This document shows, piece by piece, positions 19,901-57,969 of a stretch of 64,000 nucleotides of DNA; positions within the stretch are counted from its first letter, which is position 1, and each line of letters opens with the position of its first letter. This stretch comes from Actinomycetota bacterium (GTDB lineage Bacteria; Actinomycetota; Humimicrobiia; Humimicrobiales; Humimicrobiaceae). Both the position numbers and the translations under genes were made by a program. The notes beneath the pieces were generated by a model, which was given only the letters and a program-made list of their open reading frames with translations, was not told the origin of the DNA and ran no database searches. The stretch covers positions 11,318 through 75,317 of the forward strand of contig DUQM01000015.1 of the NCBI GenBank assembly GCA_012837825.1. Reading direction: 5' to 3'.

Positions 19901-20866
19901 TTATCTTTTATTTCTTGTGCATTCTGTATTGCCTGATTTCCGGCATTTAACCCATGTCAGAAAAATTCTGAATCCCAGTATCGGCAAAACAAAGGGGATA
20001 AGGATTATTTTCCAGGACTTTTTATTAACCTTTAAGAAGAATCGGAGAGCACTTTTCTGCATCAGCTTCTGCACTTTAACAGGATTATTATCTCCGCTCT
20101 TGCCGATATGGTGAAGCACTTTTATGTCAGGGAAATAAATGACTTTATACCCTGATTGCCACATCCTGTAGCATAAATCCACATCTTCCACATACATAAA
20201 ATATTTTTCATCAAAAAGGCCTGAGATATTAAGAGCCGCTTTTGATATTAGCATTGCCGAGCCGGAGACCCAGTCCGTTTCAAAACTTCTGCTCCTATCG
20301 GCATCTGACATCTTATAGTGTCTGGAAAACCTGTTGTCAGGGTTTATCAGGGAGAGGATATTATGGGCAGCAGCATTAATAAGTGATGGAAATTTCCGGC
20401 AGGAATACTGAACAGTACCGTCTGAATTTATTATTTTCGGGCCCAGGATGCCTATCTTGTCTGAGGGTATATCATTCTTTATATATCTCAGCACGTTTTC
20501 AATTGAGTTTTCAAAAATTTCTGTATCGCTGTTAAGTAAAAAGAAATAGTCTGCCGAAGAAGAAGAGATTGCCTGATTGTTTGCATAGGCAAATCCCATA
20601 TTTTTATCATTCATGATACTTCTTATAAAAAAATGGTTTCTGCAGAATTCTTCAACAAGCCCTTTTGAGCCATCAGTAGAATTATTATCTACAATAATTA
20701 TTTCGATAAGCTCCTTATCTTTTTCAGGTATAAATTTTATTACAGAGTCAATGCATTTTTGCAGATATTTTTTACTGTTATAGCTTGCAACTATTACGGC
20801 AAGCAGTATGCCGTCCGATGGCGGTGCTTCAGATTTAAAATACTTTTCCGGTTTGCCTGTTTCCAT
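19901..20866 (-). CDS. Glycosyltransferase family 2
   Basis: GT-A fold signatures (LAVIVASYNSKKYLQKCIDS…, VDNNSTDGS, DAD-type motif LLNSDTE). It is the first gene of the minus-strand nucleotide-sugar operon. Confidence 0.75.
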   Translation of the reverse strand: METGKPEKYFKSEAPPSDGILLAVIVASYNSKKYLQKCIDSVIKFIPEKDKELIEIIIVDNNSTDGSKGLVEEFCRNHFFIRSIMNDKNMGFAYANNQAISSSSADYFFLLNSDTEIFENSIENVLRYIKNDIPSDKIGILGPKIINSDGTVQYSCRKFPSLINAAAHNILSLINPDNRFSRHYKMSDADRSRSFETDWVSGSAMLISKAALNISGLFDEKYFMYVEDVDLCYRMWQSGYKVIYFPDIKVLHHIGKSGDNNPVKVQKLMQKSALRFFLKVNKKSWKIILIPFVLPILGFRIFLTWVKCRKSGNTECTRNKR

Positions 20867-21300
20867 AATAATTCAGTATTATAAAAATTTAACAGTGAAA
20901 GTTTTATGATATTCTATCATAAAAAACAATTACTTTTTCCGTTAATCTTTAAAAGAAACACGTTTCTTTTATGAGTTTTTTATAATCCCTGACAGGCCGG
21001 TATTTATCTGTTTCCTTTTACGTGAAACTCTTTCAATGCCGGATGAAAGACAGTTTTTGATTTTTACATCTATGCTGTCACTACTGTCACTATATTTAAT
21101 GACTTTTTTCCTGATTTTGTAAATGAAGTAATATAAAAAGTGCCTGATTTATTTTTCAACAGCCCGAAACCTCCCCGCAGGAGCACAGTGGGGATCACTA
21201 AATAAAAAAACCTTATGTGTCGGGACAGATACCGGCATCACAGGATTCAAATATGGTCTGTCTTAAAACCATGTTCTCTGCTGCTATCGGTAAACCTGTT

Positions 21301-22167
21301 CTATAATTCTGAAGACATTATCTTTTCCCAAATATTCTTTATTTCCTTTCCTGCGATGCTTTCCATGTCATCTACAGCAAAAGTATTGTTGGCAAGATTA
21401 AACGGTATTCTTTCATCATAAGGTATTTCCCCAATTATTTCAGTATTGGCAGAATTGCAGAACTTTATTATTTTCTGACGGTTATCCTCGTTTAAATCTT
21501 TCTTATTTATTACCACAAATGGTTTTATTCCAAAAAATTTAACGACATCATATATCTTTAAAAAATCACTAATCCCTGACAGTGTAGGCTCGATCATTAT
21601 GACTGCAAGATCAACACCATTTAAGGAAGCTATCACTGAACAGCCTATCCCGGGCGCAGCGTCAATTATTATAAGGTCTTTGTTTTCCCTGTAGACAAGA
21701 TCTTCCGCAATATTTCTTACAATCGTAACAAGCTTTCCTGAGTTTTCTGCCCCAGGATCAAGTCTTGCATGAACAAATTTTCCAAAAACTGTATCGGATA
21801 TATAATATTCACCCTGCTTTTCTGCTTTAAGCCCGATTGCATCTGCCGGACAGATATATTCACAGACTCCGCAACCTTCACATTTTAAGGAATCGAATTT
21901 TATATCTGTAATAGAGTCGCTTATTGCATCAAATCTGCATAATTCCTCGCATCTGCCACAGTTTATGCACTCACTTTTAAGATATGCAACAGGACCCCCT
22001 ATAAATTCCTGTGTCTTGAGAATATTGGGTTTTAATAATATATACAGATTGGAAGCATCCACATCTGCATCAACAGCCACATGGTTCTTTGCAAGTCTTA
22101 TAAAATTTGAAGCAAGCGTAGTTTTTCCGGTTCCTCCCTTGCCGCTTATTATAGTCATTTGTTTCAT
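21301..22167 (-). CDS. MinD/ParA-family P-loop ATPase with inserted 2x[4Fe-4S] ferredoxin domain (COG1149-like)
   Basis: Deviant Walker A GKGGTGKTT and two CxxCxxCxxxCP motifs (CINCGRCEELCRFDAI, CEGCGVCEYICPADAI). The start was re-assigned to MKQMTIISGKGG (ATG overlapping the upstream stop in an ATGA junction). The ORF-track N-terminal 22 aa overlap the upstream gene and are probably not translated. Confidence 0.75.
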   Translation of the reverse strand: MKQMTIISGKGGTGKTTLASNFIRLAKNHVAVDADVDASNLYILLKPNILKTQEFIGGPVAYLKSECINCGRCEELCRFDAISDSITDIKFDSLKCEGCGVCEYICPADAIGLKAEKQGEYYISDTVFGKFVHARLDPGAENSGKLVTIVRNIAEDLVYRENKDLIIIDAAPGIGCSVIASLNGVDLAVIMIEPTLSGISDFLKIYDVVKFFGIKPFVVINKKDLNEDNRQKIIKFCNSANTEIIGEIPYDERIPFNLANNTFAVDDMESIAGKEIKNIWEKIMSSEL

Positions 22168-23003
22168 CTGCCCACTTCCTCTTTTATTACATCGATTATT
22201 CCTAAAAACTTGTCTTTCATTTTCGGATCCCACTCAAGAAGAGAACCCCCTTTTGAATAAGTTTTTGCGATGTTTATATCATTGGGGATTTTTAAGAGTA
22301 TTTTATATGAATTCTGTCTGCAGAAGTCTTCAAGCTCTTTGTTTCCGATCCCGTCACGATTTATGATAATTCCAAACTTTTTATCCAGGTTTTTAAGTAT
22401 GTCGATAGATATCTTTAAATCACTCAGTCCGTACAAGGTAGGCTCTGTAACCAGTATGCAATAATCACAATTTTTAACAGCATTTACCATATTGCATGAA
22501 TTTCCGGGAGGACTGTCAATTATAACAGTCTGGCTTCTGTCCAGCATCTTTTCAAGATCCCCCTGAATATTGGAAGTCCTCATGCTTTTTGGCTTTAGAT
22601 TCCCCATAAAAAAATAAATGCCGGGACTTTTAAAACCCTTGCTTATTTCACCGACTTCAACATCTTTTTCCCTGACATAGCCCTCAGGGCCTACGAGTAT
22701 GCACCCTCCGCATCCATGACAGAGTTCTTCAAAAAAAATATAATCCTCACCAATAGAAGCAATCGCATTAAAATGACAGAAGTCTGAGCATGCCTTGAAA
22801 GATACTCCTTCTTTTTTAATGAAATAAGGATATTTTACATATACTTTCTGATAATGATTGATATCCGGCTTCAGAAAAATATCAGAATTTGGTGCCTCAA
22901 CATCAAAATCGTAAAAATTACAATATCCCAGAGACTGGGCAAGCGCTACAGAAACAGTAGTCTTTCCGGTTCCTCCTTTTCCGCTGGCAACTGAAATAAT
23001 CAC
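22164..23003 (-). CDS. MinD/ParA-family P-loop ATPase with Cys-rich (Fe-S) insert, paralogue of preceding gene
   Basis: Walker A GKGGTGKTT, Cys motifs (CSDFCHFNAI…CHGCGGC). It is homologous to the 21301 ORF. Confidence 0.75.
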   Translation of the reverse strand: MIISVASGKGGTGKTTVSVALAQSLGYCNFYDFDVEAPNSDIFLKPDINHYQKVYVKYPYFIKKEGVSFKACSDFCHFNAIASIGEDYIFFEELCHGCGGCILVGPEGYVREKDVEVGEISKGFKSPGIYFFMGNLKPKSMRTSNIQGDLEKMLDRSQTVIIDSPPGNSCNMVNAVKNCDYCILVTEPTLYGLSDLKISIDILKNLDKKFGIIINRDGIGNKELEDFCRQNSYKILLKIPNDINIAKTYSKGGSLLEWDPKMKDKFLGIIDVIKEEVGR

Positions 23004-23018
23004 TTATAACCTCCGTTT

Positions 23019-23390
23019 TTACTCTTTACCCATACCGTAATGAGACTGCACACTGGGACCGGAAGCAGATGTTAGCTGGTTTGCTTTATACTTCGCTATT
23101 GCTTCTTTTATCGGTCCGCTTACACCTGTATATATTTTTATTTTTGCGCTTTCAAACACCCTGTAAGAATTAGGGCCGATATTTCCGGTTATTACTGCTT
23201 CCACACCTTTGGAAATGACTTCCTGTGCTGCCTGTATCCCTGCACCGCCCATTGCATTTCTGCTTGAATTTGAAATAAACTCATAATTCTCAGTACCGTC
23301 ATCATAAATCAGAAAGAAAGGGCATCTTCCAAATCTTGGATCTACTGAAGAATCAATATTGTCACCTGTAGAAGATATACATATTTTCAT
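23019..23390 (-). CDS. NifX/NifB-like dinitrogenase FeMo-cofactor-binding domain protein (COG1433-like)
   Basis: 123 aa. MKICISSTGDNIDSSVDPRFGRCPFFLIYD… and …GAGIQAAQEVISKGVEAVITGNIGPN… are characteristic of the NifX/NafY/NifB C-terminal domain fold. Confidence 0.7.
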   Translation of the reverse strand: MKICISSTGDNIDSSVDPRFGRCPFFLIYDDGTENYEFISNSSRNAMGGAGIQAAQEVISKGVEAVITGNIGPNSYRVFESAKIKIYTGVSGPIKEAIAKYKANQLTSASGPSVQSHYGMGKE

Positions 23391-23416
23391 TTTTACTCCT
23401 TAATTAAACTAATTTA

Positions 23417-23641
23417 TTATTCTCTTGTCATAACAGTACCACATTTTGGACATTCGGTCTGACTGCATGGTACTCCTTGCTGATGGGGCACTTTCTCGCC
23501 ACAGCTCGGGCATACACAGTAACCTCCGATACCGGCACCTCTGCCCATTCCGCCGCCTCTTCCTGAGTAAACTCCTCTTCCCAGACCTCTTCCTGTTCCG
23601 GGACCCTGTCCTGCAGGTCCTGTTCCGTCTCCTCTTGGCAT
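23417..23641 (-). CDS. DUF5320-like Gly/Arg-rich small protein with C-terminal zinc ribbon
   Basis: Begins MPRGDGTGPAGQGPGTGRGLGRG, a conserved N-terminus shared with the 24187 ORF, and ends with CxxC…CxxC (CPSCGEKV…CPKCGTV). Confidence 0.6.
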   Translation of the reverse strand: MPRGDGTGPAGQGPGTGRGLGRGVYSGRGGGMGRGAGIGGYCVCPSCGEKVPHQQGVPCSQTECPKCGTVMTRE

Positions 23642-23757
23642 TTCCCCTCCTTTTAACTGAATTGTTTTAATTTTAATCTTTTATTAATATATTTTATATT
23701 CTATTTTGATTCTTTTCTATCTTCAGATATTTTTCCTATACATCTTCTATGGGTTTT

Positions 23758-24150
23758 TTATGTATGATGGCATTCGCCTTTCTCAACACCCATGCCTTTT
23801 CCGCTTCCCGGCTCACAAACACTGTCCTTTTTTTCAAGTTCATTATTTATGTATGCCTTTACTACATCGTCGGAAACACCTTCAATACCAACATAGCATT
23901 CAATATTATACTGGCTGAAAAGCTCCCGCGCTCTCATCCCCATGCCACCTGTTATAATTAACTCAACTCCTTTATTTTTTAAAAACTCAGGAATAACTCC
24001 TACTTCATGGCCCGGATTATCTATTGCCTCTTTGCTTTTTACTTTTTTATCCTCAATATCGTAAATCGTAAACTGCGGACTTCTCCCAAAATGGGGGAAA
24101 ACCATATTATTTTCAGTAGCTACAGCAATTTTCAAAACATCCTCCTTCAA
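23758..24150 (-). CDS. NifX/NifB-like cofactor-binding domain protein with Cys/His-rich C-terminal tail
   Basis: …IAVATENNMVFPHFGRSPQFTIYD…GVELIITGGMGMRA… matches the NifX-like domain. It has an extra C-terminal CEPGSGKGMGVEKGECHHT tail. Confidence 0.7.
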   Translation of the reverse strand: MKEDVLKIAVATENNMVFPHFGRSPQFTIYDIEDKKVKSKEAIDNPGHEVGVIPEFLKNKGVELIITGGMGMRARELFSQYNIECYVGIEGVSDDVVKAYINNELEKKDSVCEPGSGKGMGVEKGECHHT

Positions 24151-24186
24151 ATATTATTATTTTCTATCTTTTCATAAAAAATAATT

Positions 24187-24597
24187 TTATTTATTTTCCT
24201 GATTTTCGTTTTTTTCCAGTTCCGCCAGCCTGCTTTCAATGTCTGAAATCTGGCTTTTTAAAAACTCTGCCTGATCTTTTAAAAATGCCTTCTCATCTTC
24301 TGCTGCCCCAAATCGGGAAGCGCCCTGAAAAGGGTATGGTTCCGTTCCCCGGTATGAGCCTCGTGCAGGCATTCCTGCATTTGCCCTGTACCATCCGGGA
24401 AGACCTGTTGCATAATACATATTCCTGTAGCCTCTTCCTCTTCCGAAACCGCCTCCGAAAAATCCCGGACCTCTGAAAGCGCCTCTTCCGAATGCCGGAT
24501 TGGCAAAACCGGGTACGGAGTACCCCGCACAATAGCCTGCTGCCTTTCCGGTCATCGGGCCCATTCCTGCCGGTCCTGTTCCGTCTCCTCTTGGCAT
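24187..24597 (-). CDS. DUF5320-like Gly/Arg-rich protein with C-terminal coiled coil
   Basis: N-terminus MPRGDGTGPAGMGPMTGKAAGYCAGY… is paralogous to the 23417 ORF. It has a G/R/F-rich middle and an acidic coiled-coil C-terminus. Confidence 0.6.
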   Translation of the reverse strand: MPRGDGTGPAGMGPMTGKAAGYCAGYSVPGFANPAFGRGAFRGPGFFGGGFGRGRGYRNMYYATGLPGWYRANAGMPARGSYRGTEPYPFQGASRFGAAEDEKAFLKDQAEFLKSQISDIESRLAELEKNENQENK

Positions 24598-24726
24598 AAT
24601 AACACCTCCTGTAAATATTAGAAAATATAATTAAAATATAAATGAACTATGGTTCAATACTATATTAATGAACCATAGTTCATTTGTCAAGATTATATCT
24701 TTTTTTTTATAAAAAAATATTTTTTA

Positions 24727-25281
24727 CTATCCGGCCGAAAATCCTCTCTTTGCAAAACATTTTTCAAGAGCAAAATAGCCTTTATTTATATAAGCAAATG
24801 TATCCAGTTTTTCAACAGAAACGGCATCATTTTCATCCAGAATATTTTCATCCATCATACAGCTTACAACTTCCCCGAAAATAATATTTCCTCCACCTAT
24901 CTTTATGATATCTGCAACCCTGCATTCATAATTTATAGGACACTCTGCAATAAGCTTCGGCTTTATAACTGATGAATCAATTTTTGTAAGACAGGTTTTT
25001 TCAAATTTGTCGACCTGTTCACCGCTGTTTTGACCACAGAAATCAACTTTCTCAAGTATTGAGGAACATGGTATATTCAGACCGAATTCTTTTGTTTCAT
25101 TTATAAGCCTGTAGGAATACTTTTCCCCTCCAATGGAAATCATGACAATCGGTGGAACTCTTGAAGCATTGCTTGTCCAGGCAATTGTAATAATATTATC
25201 ATTTCCATCAGAGTCACAGCATGTAACAAGCGCTATGGGTTGTGGATAAATAATGTTTGAGGGTTGAATATTTTTCTTCAT
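24727..25281 (-). CDS. Flavin reductase-like FMN-binding domain protein (flavoredoxin family)
   Basis: 184 aa. …PQPIALVTCCDSDGNDNIITIAWTS… is typical of the flavin reductase-like split-barrel domain. Confidence 0.65.
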   Translation of the reverse strand: MKKNIQPSNIIYPQPIALVTCCDSDGNDNIITIAWTSNASRVPPIVMISIGGEKYSYRLINETKEFGLNIPCSSILEKVDFCGQNSGEQVDKFEKTCLTKIDSSVIKPKLIAECPINYECRVADIIKIGGGNIIFGEVVSCMMDENILDENDAVSVEKLDTFAYINKGYFALEKCFAKRGFSAG

Positions 25282-25438
25282 AAAAACTCCTGTCTGGTTT
25301 TTTGATAATCCGAATCAGTTCGAACGGTTTATTTTTTCCAAAATAATTAATTGATAACTTATGAACTATGGATCAATATGATTTATTATATTTTTATGCG
25401 GCAATTTACAGGAAAAAGATAAGTGGCTGCGCCTGATA

Positions 25439-25927
25439 TTAAAATCTTCCCTGCCGCAATCTTCCACCACGGCCATGCCCATAACCAGAATTACACTTCT
25501 TAAGCATCTCTTCCATATTTTCTACATCATCTTCTTTGCAGCTTGGGCAGTTTTCTTCAATATCCAAACCCTTGTTCTGTTCATCTGCTTTCAGATCCCA
25601 TTCATATCCACACTTCCTGCATCTGTAGGCATTATTAACAAAAACAAAACTGCCTCCCTCTATACGTATTGCATAACCGTTAACAATAGCGCTCCCTATC
25701 TTTTTATGCGCACTACCTAACAGTCTTGTAAAAGTAGGCCTTGAGATCTCCATACTTTTCGCTGATTCAAGATGATTTAAATTCTCAATATCAACAAGCC
25801 TGATTGCTTCATATTCATCAACAGTCAGATTTACCGATTCAAGTTTGGAAGCAGGTACCCCGGCAGGCTTAAAAAAATAAAATCTTGGCGGATAAAGAAC
25901 TTTTCTCTTTTTTTTCGGCTTAACCAT
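25439..25927 (-). CDS. DUF134/UPF0251 family putative DNA-binding protein with C-terminal zinc ribbon (COG1342-like)
   Basis: The N-terminal region (…LTVDEYEAIRLVDIENLNHLESAKSMEISRPTFTRLLGSAHKKIGSAIVNG…) resembles a sigma-70 region-4-like HTH typical of DUF134. The C-terminus has CRKCGYEW…CPSCKED. Confidence 0.6.
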   Translation of the reverse strand: MVKPKKKRKVLYPPRFYFFKPAGVPASKLESVNLTVDEYEAIRLVDIENLNHLESAKSMEISRPTFTRLLGSAHKKIGSAIVNGYAIRIEGGSFVFVNNAYRCRKCGYEWDLKADEQNKGLDIEENCPSCKEDDVENMEEMLKKCNSGYGHGRGGRLRQGRF

Positions 25928-26332
25928 AACTTATTTAATATCCGGTTTTTATTTATACTAAATAAAATATTTATAAATTTTATAACTTATAACAGATTAT
26001 CTGTTTTGTTTTATAAATATGTGATCGGTATTGCAAATAATGATATTTAAAAATAATTTTTATTTCCCGCTATTACTATTATAGTATCACACCCATTGAT
26101 TAATTTCAGCTTATAGAACATGCCGGAACTCAATAATAAAAACCGGTCGGATTTATAATTTTTATGAATCCTTATATATAAAAAAGCCATAATAAATAAC
26201 TGTAAATATAAATTTTAAGCATGGAAAAGATAATGAAGCTATTTAAATCCAAAAAAGGCATTATTTATTATGAATACTCTTCAGAAAATCCTGTGCATAC
26301 AAAAAATTATTGAAAAATATCATTGTCTGATT

Positions 26333-27460
26333 TTATTTCATCATTTTTTGTATTATCTGGCTTGAAATAATATCAACCATCTCATCTATGCTGTTTCTTG
26401 ATAAGGAGGAAGATAGCTTATTCCCTATGCTTCCCGGATCTATTTTGCAGTTTGCGGAATCGACGTACTGTCTGGTTTTAATTTCTACATATTCACAGAA
26501 AGGAATTATTTCCTTCGATGGTGAATATTCCATTTTTGTATGTGGAAAATATTTTAGAAGAAGATCTTCTGTCATTTTCCTCAGTTTATTTTTCACTTCA
26601 ACCAGCTCATTGCCAAGCAAAGTGTTATAAGCCATTTTCGGAGGACCCATTTTTATTCCTCTTAAATCAAGAGCTTCCTTGAAACCCTGGGGGAAATTTA
26701 CTGATTTCATTGTTCTTATGAATTCAAGAATTGCAAACTGAAGCTCAAGAGCGCGGGAATGGTTCCCGTTTAAAAAATTATCATAAATGCCTACCATGAA
26801 TTCCGGAAGTATTCCGGCTGTTGCAGTCATGCAGCCTTTGCCACCGGCTGCAAGAGCAGGATACAGAATTTCTTCCGCCCCTACAAGCACCTTGAAATCA
26901 GGCTTTATTTTCTTCGTCATTTCTATAAGATTCATGACATTTATCATATTCCCTGATGAATCCTTGATGCCTACAACATTTGGAAGAACGCAGAGGTCAC
27001 GAGCTATCTGCGGTGTTACTTCATTTGCAAAAAAAGGTATATTGTATAAAAAAATCGGAATATCGACAGCAACTGCAACTTTCTTGAGATGCTCCTCAAC
27101 AATATCATTTATATTTTTGAAGAAATAAGGGCCATGAAGCACAACTGCGGAACAACCTTTTTCTTTTGCATAATCTGCCAGTTCAATTGATTTTTCAAAA
27201 CAAGTTGCTCCTGTGCCGGGAATAATGGCTACCCTTCCATTATTTTCATCAGCAACTATGTCAATCAGATACTTTCTCTCTTCCATATCCATATGCACAT
27301 ATTCACCGCATGATGAAACAGGAAAAATACCATCAACGCCACTGTCGATCAGAAAATTAACAAGTTTTCTTACTTCAATTTCGTTTACTCTCCCATCTTC
27401 TTTGAAGGGAGTAAGCATTGCAACTATTACACCTTCCGGAATAGCCATCTTTAACTCCAA
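26333..27460 (-). CDS. DapA/N-acetylneuraminate lyase family enzyme (2-keto-3-deoxy sugar-acid aldolase or dehydratase) with ~80-aa C-terminal extension
   Basis: …VIVAMLTPFKEDGRVNEIEVRKLVNFLIDSGVDGIFPVSSCGEY… TIM-barrel Schiff-base lyase family signature. It is the last gene of the sugar-acid operon. The C-terminal 80 aa lie outside the normal ~295-aa fold. Confidence 0.6.
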   Translation of the reverse strand: MELKMAIPEGVIVAMLTPFKEDGRVNEIEVRKLVNFLIDSGVDGIFPVSSCGEYVHMDMEERKYLIDIVADENNGRVAIIPGTGATCFEKSIELADYAKEKGCSAVVLHGPYFFKNINDIVEEHLKKVAVAVDIPIFLYNIPFFANEVTPQIARDLCVLPNVVGIKDSSGNMINVMNLIEMTKKIKPDFKVLVGAEEILYPALAAGGKGCMTATAGILPEFMVGIYDNFLNGNHSRALELQFAILEFIRTMKSVNFPQGFKEALDLRGIKMGPPKMAYNTLLGNELVEVKNKLRKMTEDLLLKYFPHTKMEYSPSKEIIPFCEYVEIKTRQYVDSANCKIDPGSIGNKLSSSLSRNSIDEMVDIISSQIIQKMMK

Positions 27461-27593
27461 TTTCTTTAAAACTTAAAAGATTTAAAATAATAACAGCACA
27501 AACCATGCCTGCAATCAATATATTATATGCCGGTAATCAATATATTACATATTTATATTAAAGGAAAGGTATGTAAAGTATTATTTTAATTTT

Positions 27594-28808
27594 TTAAATT
27601 TTTAATTTTTCAATTACTTCCATATTAAGTGTTATCCCAAAACCCGGCTTGTCTTCATCAATTTCCATAAATCCATCCTCCGCCCCGGGGCTCCCCAGGA
27701 TATAAGCATCCGAGAAACCACCTTTCTGCTCTTTCTTCTCCCATGAAGGAACACAGGTATCTTCTGCCCATTTTACAGAGGGACACGACATGACAAAATG
27801 CAAAGTTTCAGCATAACTCACATGTGGGGCAAGCGGAACGCCAAATGCTTCAGCAATTGCAGCAACTTTCTTTGCTTCTGTAAGACCACCCATTCTTCTA
27901 ATATCCGGCTGGATAATATCAACTACTTTTTGCGATATAAGCTGGGCAAATCCGAATCTTGTATATTCATGTTCGCCGGCTGCAATTGGTGTAGATACTT
28001 TTGTTTTAAGATATTTGTAGCCTTCAATATTATCAGGCAAAAGCGGCTCTTCCACCCAGGTAAGATTATACTTCTCAAGTCTTTTAATCATTTCCACCGA
28101 ATAATCAAGGTCGTTCCATCCCATATATGCGTCTATCATTAATTCAATCTCATCTCCAACTGCCTCTCTTACAGTTTTGACAAGCATTTCATTTCTTTTC
28201 ATGCCTTTAAATCCTTCCCTGGGACCTGTGCACATCCTTTGCTTTAATCCAAGATAGCCCTGCTTAACATAATCTTTTGCCTCAAGAGCCAGCTTTTCAT
28301 AATCAGGATTGTATATATCGCTGGGATGCAGATTGGATGCATATAGTTTTACCTTGTCTTTTGTTTTTCCTCCCAGAAGCTTATAGACAGGAACCTTAAG
28401 GGCTTTTCCTTTTAAATCCCATAAAGCATTGTCAACACCGCTTATTGCTTCGATTGCAGCACCTTTGCGTCCAAAAACAATAGAAGCCCGATACATTTTA
28501 TCCCATAAAGCCTCGGAATCAAAAGGATCCGCTCCTATAAGATAATTTTTATAATGGTTTTCTATAAGGATTCTTCCCGCTGCTGCAGTACCGCCGCAGC
28601 AAAAACCATAGCCCTCAATACCGCTGTCTGTCTTTATTATAACTATGGGAACTATCCAGTCAGTACCGCCTGTCCACATCCCCCGATCGGTTGCATATTC
28701 CTCATAGGGTTCCATCACTCCAACCAAAGGAGAATATCTTATAAATTTGGCAAATCCCTCTGATTTTGTTGCGGCAATATCAATTACCTGAACGTCTGTA
28801 ATCTTCAT
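27594..28808 (-). CDS. Enolase-superfamily (mandelate racemase/muconate lactonizing enzyme family) sugar-acid dehydratase, candidate L-rhamnonate/6-deoxyhexonate dehydratase
   Basis: 404 aa with an N-terminal capping domain and a barrel domain bearing acid/base and metal-ligand residues (…ELMIDAYMGWN…LTWVEEP…). Its operon context includes RhaM. Confidence 0.65.
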   Translation of the reverse strand: MKITDVQVIDIAATKSEGFAKFIRYSPLVGVMEPYEEYATDRGMWTGGTDWIVPIVIIKTDSGIEGYGFCCGGTAAAGRILIENHYKNYLIGADPFDSEALWDKMYRASIVFGRKGAAIEAISGVDNALWDLKGKALKVPVYKLLGGKTKDKVKLYASNLHPSDIYNPDYEKLALEAKDYVKQGYLGLKQRMCTGPREGFKGMKRNEMLVKTVREAVGDEIELMIDAYMGWNDLDYSVEMIKRLEKYNLTWVEEPLLPDNIEGYKYLKTKVSTPIAAGEHEYTRFGFAQLISQKVVDIIQPDIRRMGGLTEAKKVAAIAEAFGVPLAPHVSYAETLHFVMSCPSVKWAEDTCVPSWEKKEQKGGFSDAYILGSPGAEDGFMEIDEDKPGFGITLNMEVIEKLKI

Positions 28809-28889
28809 TTAACACCCGTCTTTATTTAAAAATTTTATTATAATAAATCTTTATTTTATATCTTTGCCCTACAAAACAATTGATTTTAT

Positions 28890-29669
28890 TTATTTTATCA
28901 GACCGGAAGGAAAATCTTTATCCAGAATATCAGGATCATGGCTTGTCAGAACAATATCAGCCCTGCTGCTGATTTTCTTATATGCTTCAAAGCATTCCCA
29001 GAGATTATAAAATAGTCCGACAGGATGATTGTTTTTTACATTACTTTTTAAAAAAGCCACATCTGAAGTCATTACAACCTTTCCTGATTGTGTCTCTGCT
29101 TCCACAGCCATACAGCAGGGCGTATGTCCTCCGACATAAAATACTTTAAGCCCGGGTAGTATTTCTTCTTCTTCGCCAGCGAGAATTATTTTTTCTGCAG
29201 GTAGTGAAGAGATATATTGTATCGGTTCAGTCGGGAAAAGTGCATCATTATAATAATAAGGTCTTTTCTTTTTCATATACTCAAGCCAGCCTTTGCGAGA
29301 TAATACGACTTTGGCATTTTTAAAAATCCCGACATTTGATGAATGATCATGATGAAGGTGGCTTATTATCACATAATCTACTTTTTCCGGGATGATCCTT
29401 CTTTTTTTGATATAGGACTGTATTCTTTCCTCTTCAGGAAGATCAAAGCTGATTTTCCCCTTAAATTCTTTAAAAAGCATTTTATTTATAATATCGGTAT
29501 CTCCGCATCCGGTATCTACAAGAATGGTTCTGTTTCCGGACTTTAGCTGAAAAAAATAAGTATGAAGATTATAACTATTGTCCCATTCGCTCAGATAAAA
29601 CATTTCAGGTCCGGGAGCGCTTGTCTGCCCGTTCTTAAAAATCTCAATTGAATATTTCATAACAGCCAA
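28890..29669 (-). CDS. MBL-fold metallo-hydrolase (candidate sugar lactonase)
   Basis: HxHxDH motif (ISHLHHDHSSN) and downstream His/Asp ligands. The lactonase role is inferred from pathway context only. Confidence 0.55.
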   Translation of the reverse strand: MAVMKYSIEIFKNGQTSAPGPEMFYLSEWDNSYNLHTYFFQLKSGNRTILVDTGCGDTDIINKMLFKEFKGKISFDLPEEERIQSYIKKRRIIPEKVDYVIISHLHHDHSSNVGIFKNAKVVLSRKGWLEYMKKKRPYYYNDALFPTEPIQYISSLPAEKIILAGEEEEILPGLKVFYVGGHTPCCMAVEAETQSGKVVMTSDVAFLKSNVKNNHPVGLFYNLWECFEAYKKISSRADIVLTSHDPDILDKDFPSGLIK

Positions 29670-29706
29670 ACCTTTTTAAATATTTAACACAATATTTTTA
29701 TTTATT

Positions 29707-30498
29707 TTATTGCTCTTGTTCTGAAACATTGATAAGCATTCCGTTATTTATCATTATTCCGCCTTCTACAAAAATAGTTGAGCCCGTGACATAATCGCAG
29801 TCAGCCGATGAAAGAAAAACTGCAGCCTTTCCCATATCTTCAGGTGTTCCCCATCTATGAAGCGGAATTATTTTATTTAATCTGTCAACCAGTCCCGGAA
29901 ATTCTTCTATCTGTACCTTATTTATATCTGTAATTACTGCGCCGGCTGCAATGGTATTGACATTTATCTTATACTCAGCCAGTTCAAGCGCCATGCTCTT
30001 GGCAAGCATTTTTATAGCACTCTTAGTTATACTGTATACGCCCTGGCTGCCGTTTGGTACTTCCTGATTAAAAGAAGTTACAAAAACTATTTTGCCGCCT
30101 TTATTTCTTTTAACAAGGTATCTTGCAACTTCCTGCCCGACATTAAAAGCTCCCACCAGATTTATATTCATCTGAAAATCCCAGGCTTCCTTGGTAATCT
30201 CCAGAAAAGGCTCAAACTTTACAACCCCGGCATTATTAATAAGTATATCAAGCTCATTTTTAGAAATTATTTCAGAAATCATTCTGTCAACTTCACATCT
30301 GTTTGAAACATCTGCTTTGATGCTATAGGCTTGTACTCCAAGATTTTTTAATTCCTTAACAGTTTCCTCTGCCTTTCCGGGGTCAGAAACATAATTAACA
30401 ACAACATTGCATCCTTCTTTGGCAAGTTCAATGCTTATACCTTTCCCTATGCCTCTTCCACCACCTGTAATCAGTGCCCATTTATTTTTTAGTCTCAT
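29707..30498 (-). CDS. SDR family NAD(P)-dependent oxidoreductase (candidate L-rhamnose/6-deoxyhexose 1-dehydrogenase)
   Basis: TGGGRGIGKG cofactor motif, NNAG, and catalytic S…YxxxK (YSITKSA). Confidence 0.7.
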   Translation of the reverse strand: MRLKNKWALITGGGRGIGKGISIELAKEGCNVVVNYVSDPGKAEETVKELKNLGVQAYSIKADVSNRCEVDRMISEIISKNELDILINNAGVVKFEPFLEITKEAWDFQMNINLVGAFNVGQEVARYLVKRNKGGKIVFVTSFNQEVPNGSQGVYSITKSAIKMLAKSMALELAEYKINVNTIAAGAVITDINKVQIEEFPGLVDRLNKIIPLHRWGTPEDMGKAAVFLSSADCDYVTGSTIFVEGGIMINNGMLINVSEQEQ

Positions 30499-30544
30499 AA
30501 CTGCTCCAAATTATTTTTATTTAAATATTTTAATTAATTTTCCT

Positions 30545-30880
30545 TTAATGCATCAGCTTTCCGTTTTCATAGCTGAATATCAGCGGAAGTTCTTTCATGC
30601 TTTCATTAAGTTCCGGAACAGATTTAGTCATTGCAAGTGTAATTGCATTCCACCTCTTCAAGCCTTCATCACTTTCAAAAACCTCAAGCATCTTTTTTTT
30701 GTCTTCTACTTCAAGATAAATAAAAACAAGGTTTTTAAAGATTGCAATCTCTTCTTTTATTACTCCGGCCTTTTTATTTACCTGTATTATTTCAGGCCAC
30801 ACATTTTCTTTTTTATGAATTTTTATATAATTTTCTATTTCATCTTCTTTAAGTTCCATTAGCCAGATGATTCTTTCCAT
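30545..30880 (-). CDS. rhaM: L-rhamnose mutarotase (RhaM/YiiL family)
   Basis: About 104-111 aa, MERIIWLMELKEDEIENYIKIHKK…VWPEI…RWNAIT…. The size and motif pattern match the RhaM family. Confidence 0.65.
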   Translation of the reverse strand: MERIIWLMELKEDEIENYIKIHKKENVWPEIIQVNKKAGVIKEEIAIFKNLVFIYLEVEDKKKMLEVFESDEGLKRWNAITLAMTKSVPELNESMKELPLIFSYENGKLMH

Positions 30881-30996
30881 AATAGCTCCAAGATAAAAAA
30901 AATTCTTTATTAGTAGTTCTTTTTTATAAAAATAATAAGTGTTTGGTTGGTCAAGATAATTTATAGGGGGCTTTTATTTAAGCCCCCTATAAATAC

Positions 30997-32058
30997 TTAA
31001 ATCAGGTCTTTAAATTCGTCAATATTGTCTTTATTAAATCTGAATAAAGAATCGCCTAAAAATACAAGACCTTGTTCATCACCAGCTTGTTCTCCAATAG
31101 TATACTTGCCAAGTCTTCCGGCTTCAAATGTTTCTCCCGGTTTGCCGGTAATAGCACCGGTAGCCAATAAATGAGTGGAATATGCATTTACATAACCAAG
31201 ATCAATAGGGTTCCATAGAGCAAATATAGGAGACGCACCATTTTTTACATATTCAGCCATTTCGCTAGGCATACCCAGTCCGGTTACAAAGACTTTTCCA
31301 ATCATGTCTTCGTCAGTCACAGCTCTTGCTGTAGCTGCAACTCCAACCGTTGTAGGAGCTATTATCCCTTTTAAATCCGGATAAGATTTAAACAAGCCAA
31401 GTGCTTCATTATAGCTCTTTTCCCTGACATCATCTCCATAAACAACACTGACAAGTTCTATTTTTGAATACTCAGGCTTCTCCAATTCTTCTTTCATGTA
31501 TTCAATCCATGTGTTTTGATTGGCCATTGTGGCGGCAGCACTTAAAATCGCTATCTGCCCTTCACCATCTATCAGTTCAGAAATAATTTTCACCTGATCA
31601 ATACCAATTACTTTCTGGTCTACGGGTTCAACAGAAAGTTGCCTGCTTCCAGGAACATTTCCGGATTCCCATCCTACAACTGCAATGCCTGCATCCATAG
31701 CTTTTTTTGCAACTGAGGCGATTGATTGAGGATCATTTGCTACATAAGTAATACCATCAACTTTCTGTGCAATGAGCTGCTCCATTATCTCTATCTGACC
31801 CTCTGGAGTAGGTTGTTCCGGACCTCTGAATATTGATTCATCTCCTAATTCTGCTGCAGCTTCATCCCAGCCTTTTTTAATAGCATCGAAAAAAGGATTG
31901 CCTATATTTTTTACTACCAAAGCAATTTTAAGACCGCCTTCCTTTGCTGCACCAGCTCCTTCTGTAACAGCAGCTTTTGTTTTGCACCCTATCCCAAAAG
32001 ATAGTGTTAAAACAATACATACAATAAAGAAAGTAAAAATCATTACTTTTCTTTTCAT
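30997..32058 (-). CDS. Sugar ABC transporter periplasmic substrate-binding protein (RbsB/RhaS-like)
   Basis: N-terminal lipoprotein-type signal (…LSFGIGC) followed by a periplasmic-binding-protein type I fold. It is adjacent to the RbsC-type permeases. Confidence 0.7.
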   Translation of the reverse strand: MKRKVMIFTFFIVCIVLTLSFGIGCKTKAAVTEGAGAAKEGGLKIALVVKNIGNPFFDAIKKGWDEAAAELGDESIFRGPEQPTPEGQIEIMEQLIAQKVDGITYVANDPQSIASVAKKAMDAGIAVVGWESGNVPGSRQLSVEPVDQKVIGIDQVKIISELIDGEGQIAILSAAATMANQNTWIEYMKEELEKPEYSKIELVSVVYGDDVREKSYNEALGLFKSYPDLKGIIAPTTVGVAATARAVTDEDMIGKVFVTGLGMPSEMAEYVKNGASPIFALWNPIDLGYVNAYSTHLLATGAITGKPGETFEAGRLGKYTIGEQAGDEQGLVFLGDSLFRFNKDNIDEFKDLI

Positions 32059-32120
32059 GTATCCTCCTCTCTTTTGATAAATTATTTATTAATTATCTGA
32101 ATAGCCGCTAAAATTAATTT

Positions 32121-50237: not shown

Positions 50238-50708
50238 TTACTGCCTGACTTCCCAGGTATCAGTAATTCTCAGTTGTCGCTGACGCTTAAATCTCAATTT
50301 AACCGAAACTCCCAGCGATATTCCCAGCCAGACAGCCCAAATGATATCTCGTGAAAAAAGGTAAAAAGCAAGCTCCGACAATTGCTTGCTGCCCCCAAAA
50401 AAATATGTGATGATAAGACTGGTTATCTGTCCGCCTGACAATATAAGAAGTATAAAAGGCAGTATGCCGGTCTTTAAGAATATCCTGTAGTCAAAACAGT
50501 TTTTCATTCCTTCGTGGCCTCTTAGAATCGATATTACAATGCCAAGACAGAACCCTGCTGCAATAAGAAATAATATCTTTATGGTTGTTATTGCCGGACC
50601 CGGCATTCCTGATAAGGGAATTTTCCCAAGCATATAATCAAACAATGAATAAAGAATAAAATAAAGGATAATATTTATATATGAAAAAATAATTAAAAAT
50701 TTACGCAA
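50238..50708 (-). CDS. Small integral membrane protein (4 predicted TM helices)
   Basis: 156 aa, hydrophobic with a basic C-terminal tail. It has no recognisable catalytic motif. A GtrA-like flippase role is speculative. Confidence 0.35.
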   Translation of the reverse strand: MRKFLIIFSYINIILYFILYSLFDYMLGKIPLSGMPGPAITTIKILFLIAAGFCLGIVISILRGHEGMKNCFDYRIFLKTGILPFILLILSGGQITSLIITYFFGGSKQLSELAFYLFSRDIIWAVWLGISLGVSVKLRFKRQRQLRITDTWEVRQ

Positions 50709-57957: not shown

Positions 57958-57969
57958 ATTTATATATTT

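What the first reader, a model, noticed from the sequence alone, without database searches (positions are those of the whole stretch)
21301..25927. Conserved but functionally unassigned Fe-S ATPase / NifX-like / DUF5320 / DUF134 gene cluster (candidate undescribed cofactor- or metallocluster-handling system)
Eight consecutive minus-strand genes have no accepted function. None has a clear relative in housekeeping pathways.
- Two paralogous MinD/ParA-type ATPases carry ferredoxin-like 4Fe-4S inserts (GKGGTGKTT plus CxxCxxCxxxCP x2).
- Two NifX/NifB-like cofactor-binding domain proteins are present, one with a Cys/His tail.
- Two Gly/Arg-rich proteins share the exact N-terminus MPRGDGTGPAG, one ending in a zinc ribbon and one in a coiled coil.
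- A flavoredoxin-like FMN protein and a DUF134/UPF0251 HTH plus zinc-ribbon protein complete the set.
From memory, the COG1149, COG1433 and COG1342 families co-occur widely in anaerobic bacteria and methanogens, and no biochemical role has been defined. There are no nitrogenase structural genes here, so a canonical FeMo-cofactor role is unlikely. The composition suggests a P-loop-ATPase-driven system that loads or transfers an Fe-S or other metallocluster onto NifX-like carriers. Electron input would come from the flavoredoxin, and transcriptional control from the DUF134 protein.
Basis: partly seen in the sequence, partly recalled or inferred. Interest (0 to 1): 0.8.

Follow-up and report, generated by a model that had tools for sequence, protein, structure and literature searches.

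The report
Orange-protein (ORP) type metal-sulfur gene cluster

Summary
All eight minus-strand genes exist at 21301-25927 and fall in the predicted families. Two corrections apply. Gene 1 starts at 22167, in an ATGA overlap with gene 2. Only gene 1 keeps both 4Fe-4S motifs; gene 2 has lost three of eight cysteines.

In 49 related loci with adequate flanks, from more than 20 anaerobe lineages, the tandem ATPase pair occurs in 44. At least one NifX-like gene occurs in 44, DUF5320 in 17, DUF134 in 16 and a flavin reductase in 1.

Four genes have one-to-one counterparts in Desulfovibrio orp-type clusters: the two ATPases, the orange protein and a second NifX-like protein. The system is therefore known in the literature, although papers up to 2021 call its role "still unclear".

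The new points are these:
- The Gly/Arg-rich DUF5320 proteins are free-standing versions of tails that relatives fuse to the orange-protein-like domain. This resembles the thioferrate-storage protein IssA.
- DUF134 is the usual head-of-operon partner outside Deltaproteobacteria.

Best reading: an ATP- and redox-driven loader or unloader of anionic metal-sulfide clusters, most likely Fe-S, on NifX-like carriers. Interest is moderate. I rate it a new variant of a known, unsolved system.

The parts
21301..22167 (-). g1: second ATPase of the pair. It is the counterpart of the second ATPase gene of Desulfovibrio orp-type clusters, a deviant-Walker-A MinD/NifH-class P-loop ATPase with a complete 2x[4Fe-4S] ferredoxin-like insert (288 aa).
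   Evidence: Pfam gives CbiA plus Fer4 x2. The ATG at 22167 overlaps the g2 stop as ATGA. g1 is 39-41% identical over its full length to the second ATPase of Desulfovibrio sp. X2 and of locus L089. All 8 ferredoxin cysteines and the switch-II Cys176 are conserved in 65/65 sequences. The AlphaFold model has pLDDT 93.5, and its nearest folds are MinD, FleN, Soj and NifH.
22164..23003 (-). g2: first ATPase of the pair, the counterpart of the first ATPase gene of orp-type clusters. It has the same P-loop but a degenerate Fe-S insert that retains one [4Fe-4S] ligand set.
   Evidence: Pfam gives CbiA/ParA, and the Fe-S domain matches only below threshold. The alignments show Cys to Gly, Phe and Gly at ferredoxin positions 1, 2 and 8. 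g2 is 32-35% identical to the first ATPase of orp-type clusters. In 64/64 pairs the first gene is g2-like, and 62/64 keep both motifs, so the loss is lineage-specific.
23019..23390 (-). g3: orange-protein (Orp8/ORP)-type single-domain NifX-like carrier, lying immediately upstream of the ATPase pair.
   Evidence: Nitro_FeMo-Co, 8e-27. Full-length PDB matches are D. gigas ORP 2WFB (2e-17), MTH1175 and TM1290. g3 is 32-38% identical to ORP orthologues that occupy the same position before the ATPase pair. It ends exactly where relatives continue into a fused Gly/Arg tail.
23417..23641 (-). g4: small cationic protein. It has the N-terminal motif MPRGDGTGPAGQGPGTGRG, then a Gly/Arg-rich linker, then a CxCPxCG...PC...CPxCG ribbon.
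   Evidence: Only the first 21 residues match the DUF5320 profile (hhalign probability 96%; Pfam 27.8 bits). The same small protein occurs in 26 of 80 related loci. In locus L008 its Gly/Arg and ribbon part is fused to the C-terminus of a g3-like domain.
23758..24150 (-). g5: second NifX-like protein, of the Orp5 / MrpORP Di-Nase-domain type, with a C-terminal Cys/His tail (start at 24150 or 24135).
   Evidence: Nitro_FeMo-Co, 3e-22. It matches the C-terminal domain of the NCBIfam MrpORP model at 99.7 bits. Its PDB relatives are PH0822 and TM1816. It is 31-33% identical to the NifX-like gene downstream of the ATPases in orp-type clusters, but it lacks their HFGHC and GGC cysteines.
24187..24597 (-). 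g6: canonical DUF5320 protein. It has the same N-terminal motif, one invariant Cys, a cationic Gly/Arg/aromatic/Pro-rich segment (pI 10.5) and an acidic C-terminal coiled coil.
   Evidence: PF17253 at 80 bits. It has 3232 cluster representatives at E<=1e-3, colinear from residue 1. Conserved features are and composition. In many relatives the Gly/Arg and coiled-coil part is fused behind a g3-like domain, with PF02579+PF17253 confirmed.
24727..25281 (-). g7: flavoredoxin-like FMN protein (Flavin_Reduct). It is a lineage-specific accessory and a possible electron donor.
   Evidence: Pfam 5e-28. It matches D. gigas flavoredoxin 2D5M at 4.6e-24 over its full length. It lies next to the cluster in the related Actinomycetota loci L094 and L096, but in only 1 of 49 distant loci.
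25439..25927 (-). g8: DUF134/UPF0251 protein and candidate transcription regulator. It combines a sigma-70 region-4-like HTH, a four-Cys zinc ribbon and a short Gly/Arg tail.
   Evidence: PF02001 at 80.7 bits. The CxxC...CPxC cysteines are invariant in alignment A2 of 12 homologues and invariant or nearly so in A5 of 54. In the model, residues about 36-83 superpose on ECF sigma region 4 at 0.5-0.9 A over 44-50 residues, although global E-values are not significant. DUF134 is present in 16 of 49 related loci, mostly upstream on the same strand. All four loci anchored on DUF134 carry NifX-like and Fe-S ATPase genes.
25991..26005 (.). Perfect 15-bp palindrome AACAGATTATCTGTT, 64 nt upstream of the g8 start. 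It is a candidate operator and is unverified.
   Evidence: It is the only perfect copy in the window and is poorly conserved in the 82%-identity relative L094. Its inclusion here is tentative.

Best explanation
This is the ORP-type (orange protein complex) module of an uncultured anaerobic Actinomycetota bacterium related to Candidatus Humimicrobiia.

Proposed mechanism, with the status of each step:
1. g2 and g1 are translationally coupled paralogues. They form an ATP-dependent heterodimer of the MinD/NifH class. This is inferred from the deviant Walker A motif, the fixed gene order, and single-chain fusions of the two in other genomes.
2. Their ferredoxin-like inserts carry [4Fe-4S] clusters: two in g1 and probably one in g2. 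This is inferred from the motifs. For the homologues, the purified Orp3-Orp4-Orp8 sample shows Fe-S absorption spectra.
3. The dimer binds the orange-protein-type carrier g3. Binding is shown for Orp3-Orp4-Orp8 in D. vulgaris and inferred here.
4. NifX-like domains hold anionic inorganic metal-sulfide species without needing full cysteine ligation. This is shown for ORP (Mo-Cu-S), IssA (thioferrate) and NifX (NifB-co).
5. g4 and g6 supply, as separate proteins, the cationic Gly/Arg(/aromatic) tails that relatives fuse to the carrier and that IssA carries in the same chain. The tails would neutralise or condense the anionic cluster material. This is inferred from natural fusions and composition.
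6. ATP hydrolysis and electron transfer through the inserts load or release clusters, most probably Fe-S, to or from the carriers g3 and g5. g7 is a lineage-specific electron donor. This is inference.
7. g8 (DUF134) controls transcription in place of the sigma-54 activator OrpR used by Deltaproteobacteria. This is inferred from the HTH fold and gene position.
For: Identity with the ORP system:
- Reciprocal best matches and the same relative order (carrier, ATPase, ATPase) link g3/g2/g1 to Desulfovibrio sp. X2 and locus L089. g5 matches the second NifX-like gene, which lies downstream of the ATPases there but upstream here.
- g3 matches PDB 2WFB, the orange protein, over its full length.
- g5 matches the NCBIfam MrpORP Di-Nase domain at 99.7 bits.
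- The literature reports that Orp3-Orp4-Orp8 co-purify, carry Fe-S clusters and accept clusters from MrpORP (PMC6345978). The orp operons are expressed only at low redox potential (PMC8359166).

Heterodimer:
- The ATGA overlap.
- 57/64 pairs overlap or lie <=20 bp apart, and the order is g2-like then g1-like in 64/64.
- Fused 620-630 aa double ATPases occur in L090 and L091.
- The fold is of the MinD/NifH class.
- A switch-II cysteine is conserved in 65/65 sequences of both paralogues. From my own knowledge of NifH, its spacing from the Walker B Asp equals that of the cluster ligand Cys132.

Tails:
- Pfam-confirmed fusions exist of Nitro_FeMo-Co with DUF5320, with the g4 ribbon, and with a second NifX-like domain.
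- g6 residues 1-95 have pI 10.5 with G25, R10, P10 and 16 aromatic residues. This matches the published chemical description of the IssA tail (PMC5524996).
- MTH1175, the best PDB hit of g3, lies in the IssA clade according to that paper.

Iron and Fe-S context in related loci:
- NifU_N/IscU-like genes in 28 loci, FUR in 10, radical SAM in 19.
- FeoB with a DtxR-like repressor beside the cluster in L095.
- Ferritin and FUR in L092.
- A Mrp-type ATPase in 20 of 49 loci.
Against: - No experiment exists for this organism or for any DUF5320 or DUF134 protein.
- The physiological role of the ORP complex is unresolved even in D. vulgaris. The published hypothesis there is cell division.
- The native ligand of the orange protein is a Mo-Cu-S cluster, not Fe-S.
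- g5 lacks the cysteines of its Desulfovibrio counterpart, so its ligand is unknown.
- g2 has lost one cluster site.
- The window encodes no Mrp/NBP35-type or IscU-type partner in the ORFs annotated.
- I could not obtain the IssA sequence. The tail comparison therefore rests on composition and on the paper's description, not on tested homology.
- The Gly/Arg/Gln-rich protein in the Desulfovibrio sp. X2 cluster is not detectably homologous to DUF5320.
Confidence: 0.55

Rival explanations
1. Molybdenum/tungsten-copper thiometallate handling. The carriers bind thiomolybdate- or thiotungstate-type clusters, as the D. gigas orange protein binds [S2MoS2CuS2MoS2]3-. The system would sequester, detoxify or deliver these species in sulfidic habitats, and the cationic tails would bind the anionic thiometallates.
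For: - g3 is a full-length homologue of the orange protein 2WFB.
- ORP natively carries a Mo-Cu-S cluster (cited in PMC6345978).
- The cationic-tail logic applies equally to thiometallates.
Against: - Among the recurrent neighbour families I annotated there were no Mo/W transporter, Moco or copper genes. Those families are iron or Fe-S related: NifU_N, FUR, FeoB, ferritin.
- No Moco riboswitch or any other significant RNA family was found in 20000-27500.
- g3 is equally close to MTH1175, which the IssA paper places in the Fe-S storage clade (PMC5524996).
Confidence: 0.2
2. Cell-division or spatial-positioning role. The MinD-like ATPases position the septum or another structure, as first proposed for the D. 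vulgaris ORP complex. That proposal rests on morphological defects when OrpR is inactivated and on the polar localisation of MrpORP.
For: - The fold class is MinD/FleN/Soj.
- The published hypothesis is in Fievet 2011, as cited in PMC8359166 and PMC3897727. The polar localisation of MrpORP is in PMC6345978.
Against: - g1 and g2 score 63 bits against NCBIfam minD models whose cut-offs are 201-213.
- No MinC or MinE family appeared among the recurrent neighbour families I annotated. Those neighbours are cluster carriers and iron or Fe-S genes.
- The invariant ferredoxin insert and the switch-II cysteine have no counterpart in the positioning ATPases I know of.
- Morphological defects could be secondary to a defect in Fe-S supply.
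Confidence: 0.12
3. Maturation of a nitrogenase-type or nitrogenase-like complex cofactor (FeMo-co, or the cofactor of a Nfl/Cfb-type reductase), with the ATPases acting like NifH and the carriers like NifX.
For: - The carriers hit the Pfam family Nitro_FeMo-Co.
- NifH and BchL appear among the structural neighbours of g1.
Against: - No NifD/K/E/N/B-like gene was found among the window ORFs annotated or among the recurrent neighbour families I annotated.
- The system occurs in many lineages, such as Dehalococcoidia and Planctomycetota, that are not generally known as nitrogen fixers (my own knowledge).
- g3 scores nothing against the NCBIfam nifX model, and g5 scores 19.7 bits against a cut-off of 112.
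Confidence: 0.03

Closest known systems
ORP (orange protein) complex gene cluster of Desulfovibrio vulgaris Hildenborough: orp3-orp4-orp5 and orp7-orp8-orp9, regulated by OrpR (Fievet 2011; PMC6345978; PMC8359166)
   Same: - A tandem pair of paralogous MinD-like ATPases with ferredoxin-type inserts.
- An orange-protein-type NifX-like carrier, which lies directly before the pair in orp-type clusters such as Desulfovibrio sp. X2.
- A second NifX-like protein.
- A small Gly/Arg-rich protein encoded beside the carrier, as seen in the Desulfovibrio sp. X2 cluster.
- A distribution restricted to anaerobes.
   Different: - The window has no MrpORP (Orp9).
- There is no sigma-54/PAS activator; a DUF134 protein takes that position.
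- All genes lie on one strand rather than in two divergent operons.
- The first ATPase has lost one cluster site.
- There are two DUF5320-type proteins. These are not detectably homologous to the Gly/Arg/Gln-rich protein of Desulfovibrio sp. X2.
- A flavoredoxin gene is included.
IssA (PF2025) thioferrate iron-sulfur storage protein of Pyrococcus furiosus (PMC5524996)
   Same: - Both have an IPR003731/NifX-like globular domain.
- Both have a cationic, Gly-, Arg- and aromatic-rich disordered tail with a single cysteine.
- Relatives of the window cluster fuse exactly such tails to the g3-like domain.
- The issA gene (sipA) is co-regulated with PF2026 (sipB), whose Thermococcus onnurineus counterpart is annotated as an ATPase (PMC4463584).
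   Different: - In the window the tail is encoded by separate genes, g4 and g6. These carry an extra N-terminal motif MPRGDGTGP, and g6 also has a coiled coil.
- No sequence comparison with IssA itself could be run.
- Thioferrate has not been shown for any member outside Pyrococcus.
NifH / Mrp-NBP35-ApbC class of cluster-handling SIMIBI ATPases
   Same: - A deviant Walker A motif (GKGGxGK[ST]).
- A predicted nucleotide-dependent dimer.
- A switch-II cysteine at the NifH Cys132-equivalent spacing.
- Association with Fe-S cluster carriers.
   Different: - The redox centres sit in an inserted 2x[4Fe-4S] ferredoxin domain in each subunit.
- They are not a single bridging cluster as in NifH, nor a CxxC bridging site as in Nbp35/ApbC.
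- No solved structure of this architecture turned up in the sequence search or the fold search.

Membership tests
ORP (orange protein) complex cluster | Tandem paralogous MinD-like ATPases, each with two [4Fe-4S] ferredoxin motifs (Orp3/Orp4). | tested here: met
   g2 and g1 are adjacent, translationally coupled paralogues with GKGGTGKTT. Reciprocal best hits link them to the first and second ATPase of Desulfovibrio-type clusters. g1 has both motifs. g2 keeps only 5 of 8 cysteines, a lineage-specific deviation: 62/64 pairs elsewhere keep both motifs.
ORP (orange protein) complex cluster | An orange-protein (Orp8/ORP) single-domain Nitro_FeMo-Co carrier encoded with the ATPases. | tested here: met
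   g3 matches 2WFB over its full length at 2e-17. It is 32-38% identical to ORP orthologues that lie directly upstream of the ATPase pair.
ORP (orange protein) complex cluster | A second NifX-like Fe-S protein (Orp5 type). | tested here: inconclusive
   g5 is the best match (31-33%) of the downstream NifX-like gene of orp-type clusters and of the MrpORP Di-Nase domain. However, the HFGHC and GGC cysteines are replaced, so cluster binding cannot be assumed.
ORP (orange protein) complex cluster | A dedicated Mrp/NBP35-Di-Nase fusion (MrpORP/Orp9) encoded in the cluster. | tested here: not met
   No such gene is in the cluster or among the window ORFs annotated. A Mrp-type ATPase without insert accompanies only 20 of 49 related loci.
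ORP (orange protein) complex cluster | The sigma-54 enhancer-binding regulator OrpR with an Fe-S PAS domain. | tested here: not met
   The first gene is a DUF134 protein. The literature states that OrpR is restricted to Deltaproteobacteria (PMC8359166).
ORP (orange protein) complex cluster | Physical Orp3-Orp4-Orp8 complex; Mo-Cu-S or Fe-S content. | not testable with these tools
   This needs anaerobic purification and metal analysis.
IssA-type thioferrate storage proteins | An IPR003731 domain followed in the same chain by a cationic Gly/aromatic/Arg tail. | tested here: not met
   g3 stops at ...HYGMGKE, exactly where the fused relatives continue into (GMGR)n tails. The tail chemistry is supplied by the separate g4 and g6 proteins. 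The system may work like IssA, but it does not have that architecture.
IssA-type thioferrate storage proteins | Sequence membership in the IssA clade and thioferrate binding. | not testable with these tools
   The IssA sequence could not be retrieved, because the supplement holds only primers. The best PDB relative of g3, MTH1175, is placed in the IssA clade by PMC5524996.
DUF5320 (PF17253) | Full-length match: N-terminal MPxGDxTGP motif, invariant Cys, Gly/Arg/aromatic region, C-terminal coiled coil. | tested here: met
   g6 scores 80 bits against a cut-off of 27 and is colinear with the family. g4 shares only the first 21 residues and is better treated as a separate small-protein family, found in 26 of 80 loci.
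DUF134 / UPF0251 (PF02001) | Profile match and an HTH of the sigma-70 region 4 type. | tested here: met
   g8 scores 80.7 bits. Local superposition on ECF sigma region 4 gives 0.5-0.9 A over 44-50 residues. DNA binding itself is untested.
MinD septum-site ATPase | An equivalog-level match to MinD and MinC/MinE partners. | tested here: not met
   g1 and g2 score 63 bits against cut-offs of 201-213. No MinC or MinE family appeared among the recurrent neighbour families I annotated.
Nitrogenase cofactor maturation (NifX/NifB/NafY) | An equivalog match to NifX, and NifDK/NifEN/NifB genes present. | tested here: not met
   Against the NCBIfam nifX model g5 scores 19.7 bits against a cut-off of 112, and g3 scores nothing. 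No nitrogenase-family gene was found among the window ORFs annotated.

The most novel reading that the evidence does not exclude
The ORP ATPase pair, the NifX-like carriers and the free or fused Gly/Arg-rich DUF5320 tails may together form an active iron-sulfur (thioferrate-like) storage organelle, the anaerobe counterpart of ferritin. The tails would condense anionic Fe-S polymer on the carriers. The redox-active ATPase heterodimer would load or mobilise it on demand. Under this reading the Desulfovibrio orange-protein complex, Pyrococcus IssA, DUF5320 and DUF134 become parts of one ancient system.
Probability: 0.2. Interest if true: 0.8.

Novelty: new variant of a known kind. Interest (0 to 1): 0.45.

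Why it matters
The ATPase pair with NifX-like carriers is one of the most widely conserved anaerobe-specific gene neighbourhoods that still lacks a defined role. In this scan it appeared in more than 20 bacterial and archaeal lineages. How strict anaerobes store and distribute Fe-S and other metal-sulfide clusters is poorly understood.

Linking three separately treated items gives concrete, testable predictions:
- The items are the Desulfovibrio ORP complex, the IssA-type cationic tails, and the uncharacterised DUF5320 and DUF134 families.
- Prediction 1: the tails bind anionic cluster material.
- Prediction 2: the ATPase heterodimer drives loading or unloading.
- Prediction 3: DUF134 is the regulator.

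The window adds no experimental handle of its own. Its organism is uncultured, and the core system is already under study elsewhere.

Tried and rejected
- RNA elements: an Rfam scan of 20000-27500 found nothing significant, and no Moco or other riboswitch.
- Promoters and terminators: the consensus scans gave no more than the shuffled background and no terminator. The transcript structure stays open.
- Operator search: there is one perfect palindrome upstream of g8. It is not repeated in the cluster and is poorly conserved in L094, so it remains only a lead.
- DUF5320 versus the Desulfovibrio sp. X2 Gly/Arg/Gln-rich protein: I tested whether this small protein, encoded just upstream of the ORP gene, is a DUF5320 homologue. 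hhalign gave 2.8% probability, so I rejected it. Only the composition is similar.
- IssA sequence: I tried to obtain it from the paper's supplement for a direct comparison. Only primers are given.
- Fievet 2011 (PMC3133258) is not held. Its content is cited second-hand from PMC6345978, PMC3897727 and PMC8359166.
- Literature searches for DUF5320, DUF134 and UPF0251 found no functional study.
- Metallo-beta-lactamase gene at 28890-29669: I considered it as part of the system, because that family recurs in 21 related loci. I rejected it. In the window it sits inside a sugar-acid catabolic operon.
- Fold search with the g8 model gave no globally significant PDB match, only local HTH and HypA-like ribbon similarities.

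Full report
**1. Observation**

The window holds eight consecutive minus-strand ORFs between 21301 and 25927.
- two CbiA/MinD-class P-loop ATPases (g1, g2);
- two Nitro_FeMo-Co (NifX-like) proteins (g3, g5);
- two proteins sharing the N-terminus MPRGDGTGPAG. g6 is a full DUF5320 protein with a coiled coil. g4 has only the motif, a Gly/Arg stretch and a Cys-rich ribbon;
- a flavoredoxin-like Flavin_Reduct protein (g7), which matches D. gigas flavoredoxin 2D5M at 4.6e-24;
- a DUF134 protein with a C-terminal CxxC...CxxC ribbon (g8).

Two details need correction. First, g1 begins at the ATG at 22167, which overlaps the g2 stop codon as ATGA. Public gene calls also give 288 aa. Second, only g1 has two complete CxxCxxCxxxC motifs. 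In g2 the cysteines at ferredoxin positions 1, 2 and 8 are Gly, Phe and Gly, which leaves one intact four-cysteine ligand set.

**2. Source organism**

The exact proteins occur in the same eight-gene order on contigs from several metagenomes and in the MAG GCA_040766485.1. NCBI labels them Actinomycetota bacterium. The nearest named relatives are Candidatus Humimicrobiaceae.

The rest of the window encodes housekeeping, sugar-catabolic and glycosyltransferase genes. No nitrogenase, Suf/Isc or Mrp genes were found. Pfam annotation, by my own scans and by the precomputed families for locus L001, covers all but two of the long ORFs.

**3. Conservation of the neighbourhood**

An alignment of ATPase homologues retrieved 80 loci from one-genome-per-species contigs. 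They span Bathyarchaeia, Methanosarcinales, Thermoplasmata, Altiarchaeota, Clostridia, Dehalococcoidia, Planctomycetota, Atribacteria, Acidobacteriota, Desulfobacterota, Synergistaceae and others.

I translated all ORFs and searched them with iterated profiles of the eight window proteins. Counts for the 49 loci with at least 4 kb upstream and 1.5 kb downstream are:

| Feature | Loci (of 49) |
|---|---|
| Tandem Fe-S ATPase pair | 44 |
| At least one NifX-like gene | 44 |
| At least two NifX-like genes | 39 |
| DUF5320 with its N-terminal motif | 17 (45 of 80 loci at profile level) |
| DUF134 | 16 (mostly upstream, same strand) |
| Mrp-type ATPase without insert | 20 |
| Flavin reductase | 1 |

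Further points on the ATPase pair:
- In 64 of 64 pairs the first gene is g2-like and the second g1-like.
- 57 pairs overlap or lie within 20 bp.
- 62 pairs keep both Fe-S motifs in both proteins.
- The eight ferredoxin cysteines of the second ATPase are conserved in 65 of 65 sequences.
- A further switch-II cysteine (g1 C176, g2 C170) is conserved in 65 of 65 sequences of both paralogues.

The reciprocal test also holds. All four loci anchored on DUF134-plus-ribbon homologues carry NifX-like and Fe-S ATPase genes. In two of them the two ATPases are fused into one protein of 620-630 aa.

In the related Actinomycetota loci L094 and L096 the flavoredoxin gene recurs beside the cluster, so it is a real but lineage-specific accessory. 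These two loci also carry a metallo-beta-lactamase-fold gene and a radical SAM gene inside the cluster, which the window lacks.

**4. What it is**

NCBIfam pointed to MrpORP: g5 scores 99.7 bits on its C-terminal domain. The PDB search pointed to the D. gigas orange protein 2WFB for g3.

I used the 2WFB sequence to fetch orange-protein orthologues and their contexts. In Desulfovibrio sp. X2 and in a second locus the order is ORP, Fe-S ATPase, Fe-S ATPase, NifX-like. In strain X2 this is preceded by a PAS sigma-54 activator and two Gly/Arg-rich proteins.

Reciprocal best hits are one-to-one:
- g3 with ORP, 32-38% identity;
- g2 with the first ATPase, 32-35%;
- g1 with the second ATPase, 39-41%;
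- g5 with the second NifX-like protein, 31-33%.

This is the ORP system described in D. vulgaris. Orp3 and Orp4 are the ATPases, Orp5 and Orp8 the NifX-like proteins, Orp9 is MrpORP, and OrpR is the regulator. Published findings are as follows:
- Orp3-Orp4-Orp8 co-purify, carry Fe-S clusters and receive clusters from MrpORP (PMC6345978).
- The operons are expressed only at low redox potential (PMC8359166).
- The system was proposed to have come from Archaea (PMC8359166).

The cluster is therefore not undescribed, but it is functionally unsolved.

**5. What is specific or new here**

(a) The first ATPase has lost one cluster site. This is shared with its close relatives, whose first ATPase likewise shows no precomputed Fer4 match, and is rare elsewhere.

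(b) The window has no MrpORP and no OrpR. A DUF134 protein heads the cluster instead. Its model shows a three-helix unit that superposes on ECF sigma region 4 at under 1 A over 44-50 residues, followed by a beta-rich four-Cys ribbon and a short Gly/Arg tail. The global fold matches are not significant. I found no functional study of DUF134 or DUF5320.

(c) The DUF5320 link comes from natural fusions in related loci (Pfam confirmation of PF02579+PF17253):
- A g3-like domain is followed by (GMGR)n and a coiled coil in many loci. This corresponds to g3 plus the body of g6.
- A g3-like domain is followed by a Gly/Arg stretch and the ribbon CVCPSCG...PC...CSKCG in L008. This corresponds to g3 plus g4.
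- A g3-like domain is followed by both a tail and a second NifX-like domain in L044. This corresponds to g3, g6 and g5.

The fusions lack the MPRGDGTGP motif, and g3 ends exactly where the fused tails begin. The free-standing proteins therefore look like detached tails that acquired an N-terminal motif, possibly for docking.

The g6 family has 3232 cluster representatives at E<=1e-3. It has an invariant N-terminus, one invariant cysteine, a cationic Gly/Arg/aromatic/Pro region (pI 10.5 in g6) and an acidic coiled coil. The g4-type small protein occurs in 26 of 80 loci.

[quoted passage not shown] In IssA the tail is proposed to wrap the polymer electrostatically. MTH1175, the best PDB hit of g3, is placed in the IssA clade by that paper (PMC5524996).

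(d) Unbiased clustering of neighbouring ORFs found other recurrent partners:
- NifU_N/IscU-like, 28 loci;
- FmdB-type zinc ribbon, 28 loci;
- metallo-beta-lactamase fold, 21 loci;
- radical SAM, 19 loci;
- TrmO_N+CGGC, 16 loci;
- ARMT1/DUF89, 12 loci;
- FUR, 10 loci;
- DnaJ with a Gly/Arg tail, 8 loci.

FeoB with a DtxR-like repressor, and ferritin with FUR, also lie beside individual clusters. The context is iron and Fe-S, not molybdenum.

**6. Mechanism**

Shown in homologues:
- a complex of the two ATPases with the orange protein;
- Fe-S content;
- transfer of clusters from MrpORP to the complex;
- non-covalent binding of anionic metal-sulfide clusters by NifX-like domains (ORP, IssA, NifX).

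Inferred here:
- g2 and g1 form an ATP-dependent heterodimer. The evidence is the deviant Walker A motif, translational coupling, fixed order, single-chain fusions and the MinD/NifH fold with pLDDT 93.5.
- The ferredoxin inserts, together with the switch-II cysteine, form an electron path towards a docked carrier. From my own knowledge of NifH, that cysteine has the same spacing from the Walker B Asp as the cluster ligand Cys132.
- g3 and g5 are the carriers.
- g4 and g6 provide cationic tails as separate proteins.
- g7 feeds electrons in this lineage.
- g8 regulates transcription.

I consider identity with the ORP system about 0.9 likely. I consider the metal-sulfide reading (loading, storage or release, with Fe-S the most likely species) about 0.55 likely.

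Rivals:
- Mo/W-Cu thiometallate handling, 0.2. This rests on the native ORP ligand, but no Mo, W or Cu genes appeared among the recurrent neighbour families annotated and there is no riboswitch.
- A division or positioning role, 0.12. This is the published hypothesis. However, the MinD equivalog scores are far below cut-off, no MinC or MinE family appeared among the recurrent neighbours annotated, and the inserts have no counterpart in positioning ATPases that I know of.
- Nitrogenase-type cofactor maturation, 0.03. No partner enzymes are present.

**7. Verdict**

I rate it a new variant of a known, functionally unresolved system.

Interest is moderate. A specialist would recognise the ORP cluster at once. 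The DUF5320 and IssA-tail link, and the DUF134 association, are useful and testable additions to a long-standing open question.

Noticed in passing
window 5326-6448 (-), site at 6359-6364: The release factor 2 gene (prfB) is split. A short ORF starts at the ATG at 6448 and runs into CTT TGA at 6364-6359, the classical programmed +1 frameshift site. The main ORF, 5326-6267, matches PCRF only from profile position 29.
   Followed up: partly
window 25991-26005: A perfect palindrome AACAGATTATCTGTT lies 64 nt upstream of the DUF134 gene. It is the only perfect copy in the window. It is a possible operator but is poorly conserved in the 82%-identity relative L094.
   Followed up: partly
L090 7336-9198 and L091 6908-8800: In two genomes the two Fe-S ATPase paralogues are fused into one protein of 620-630 aa. 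This sits beside DUF134, NifX-like genes and a divergent Mrp-type ATPase with a NifX-like gene.
   Followed up: partly
L094 3142-5010; L096 1314-3100: Close relatives carry a metallo-beta-lactamase-fold gene and a radical SAM gene inside the cluster, at a position where the window has only a 36-bp gap between g6 and g5. The same two families recur in 21 and 19 of the 80 distant loci. Their role is unexplained.
   Followed up: no
window 25439-25927 (g8), C-terminus: The DUF134 family ends in a short Gly/Arg-rich tail (GYGHGRGGRLRQGRF in g8). Its chemistry resembles the DUF5320 proteins that g8 may regulate. This may hint at a shared ligand or partner.
   Followed up: no
L077 10084-10392 and 7 other loci; L092 5599-5898: Small DnaJ-domain proteins with Gly/Arg-rich tails recur beside the cluster. 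A published D. vulgaris pull-down reports that DVU2103 (Orp3) co-elutes with DnaK (PMC3125180).
   Followed up: no
window 26333-33110 (-): Directly upstream of the cluster lies a sugar-acid catabolic operon: a DHDPS-like aldolase, an MR/MLE-type dehydratase, a metallo-beta-lactamase-fold gene (possibly a lactonase), a short-chain dehydrogenase, a RhaM mutarotase and a sugar ABC transporter. It appears unrelated to the finding.
   Followed up: no
window 43234-45546, 50238-50708, 57226-59295 (-): ORFs of 770, 156, 243 and 441 aa have no Pfam match at E<=1e-5. They lie inside a large region rich in glycosyltransferase genes (37.8-63.7 kb).
   Followed up: no
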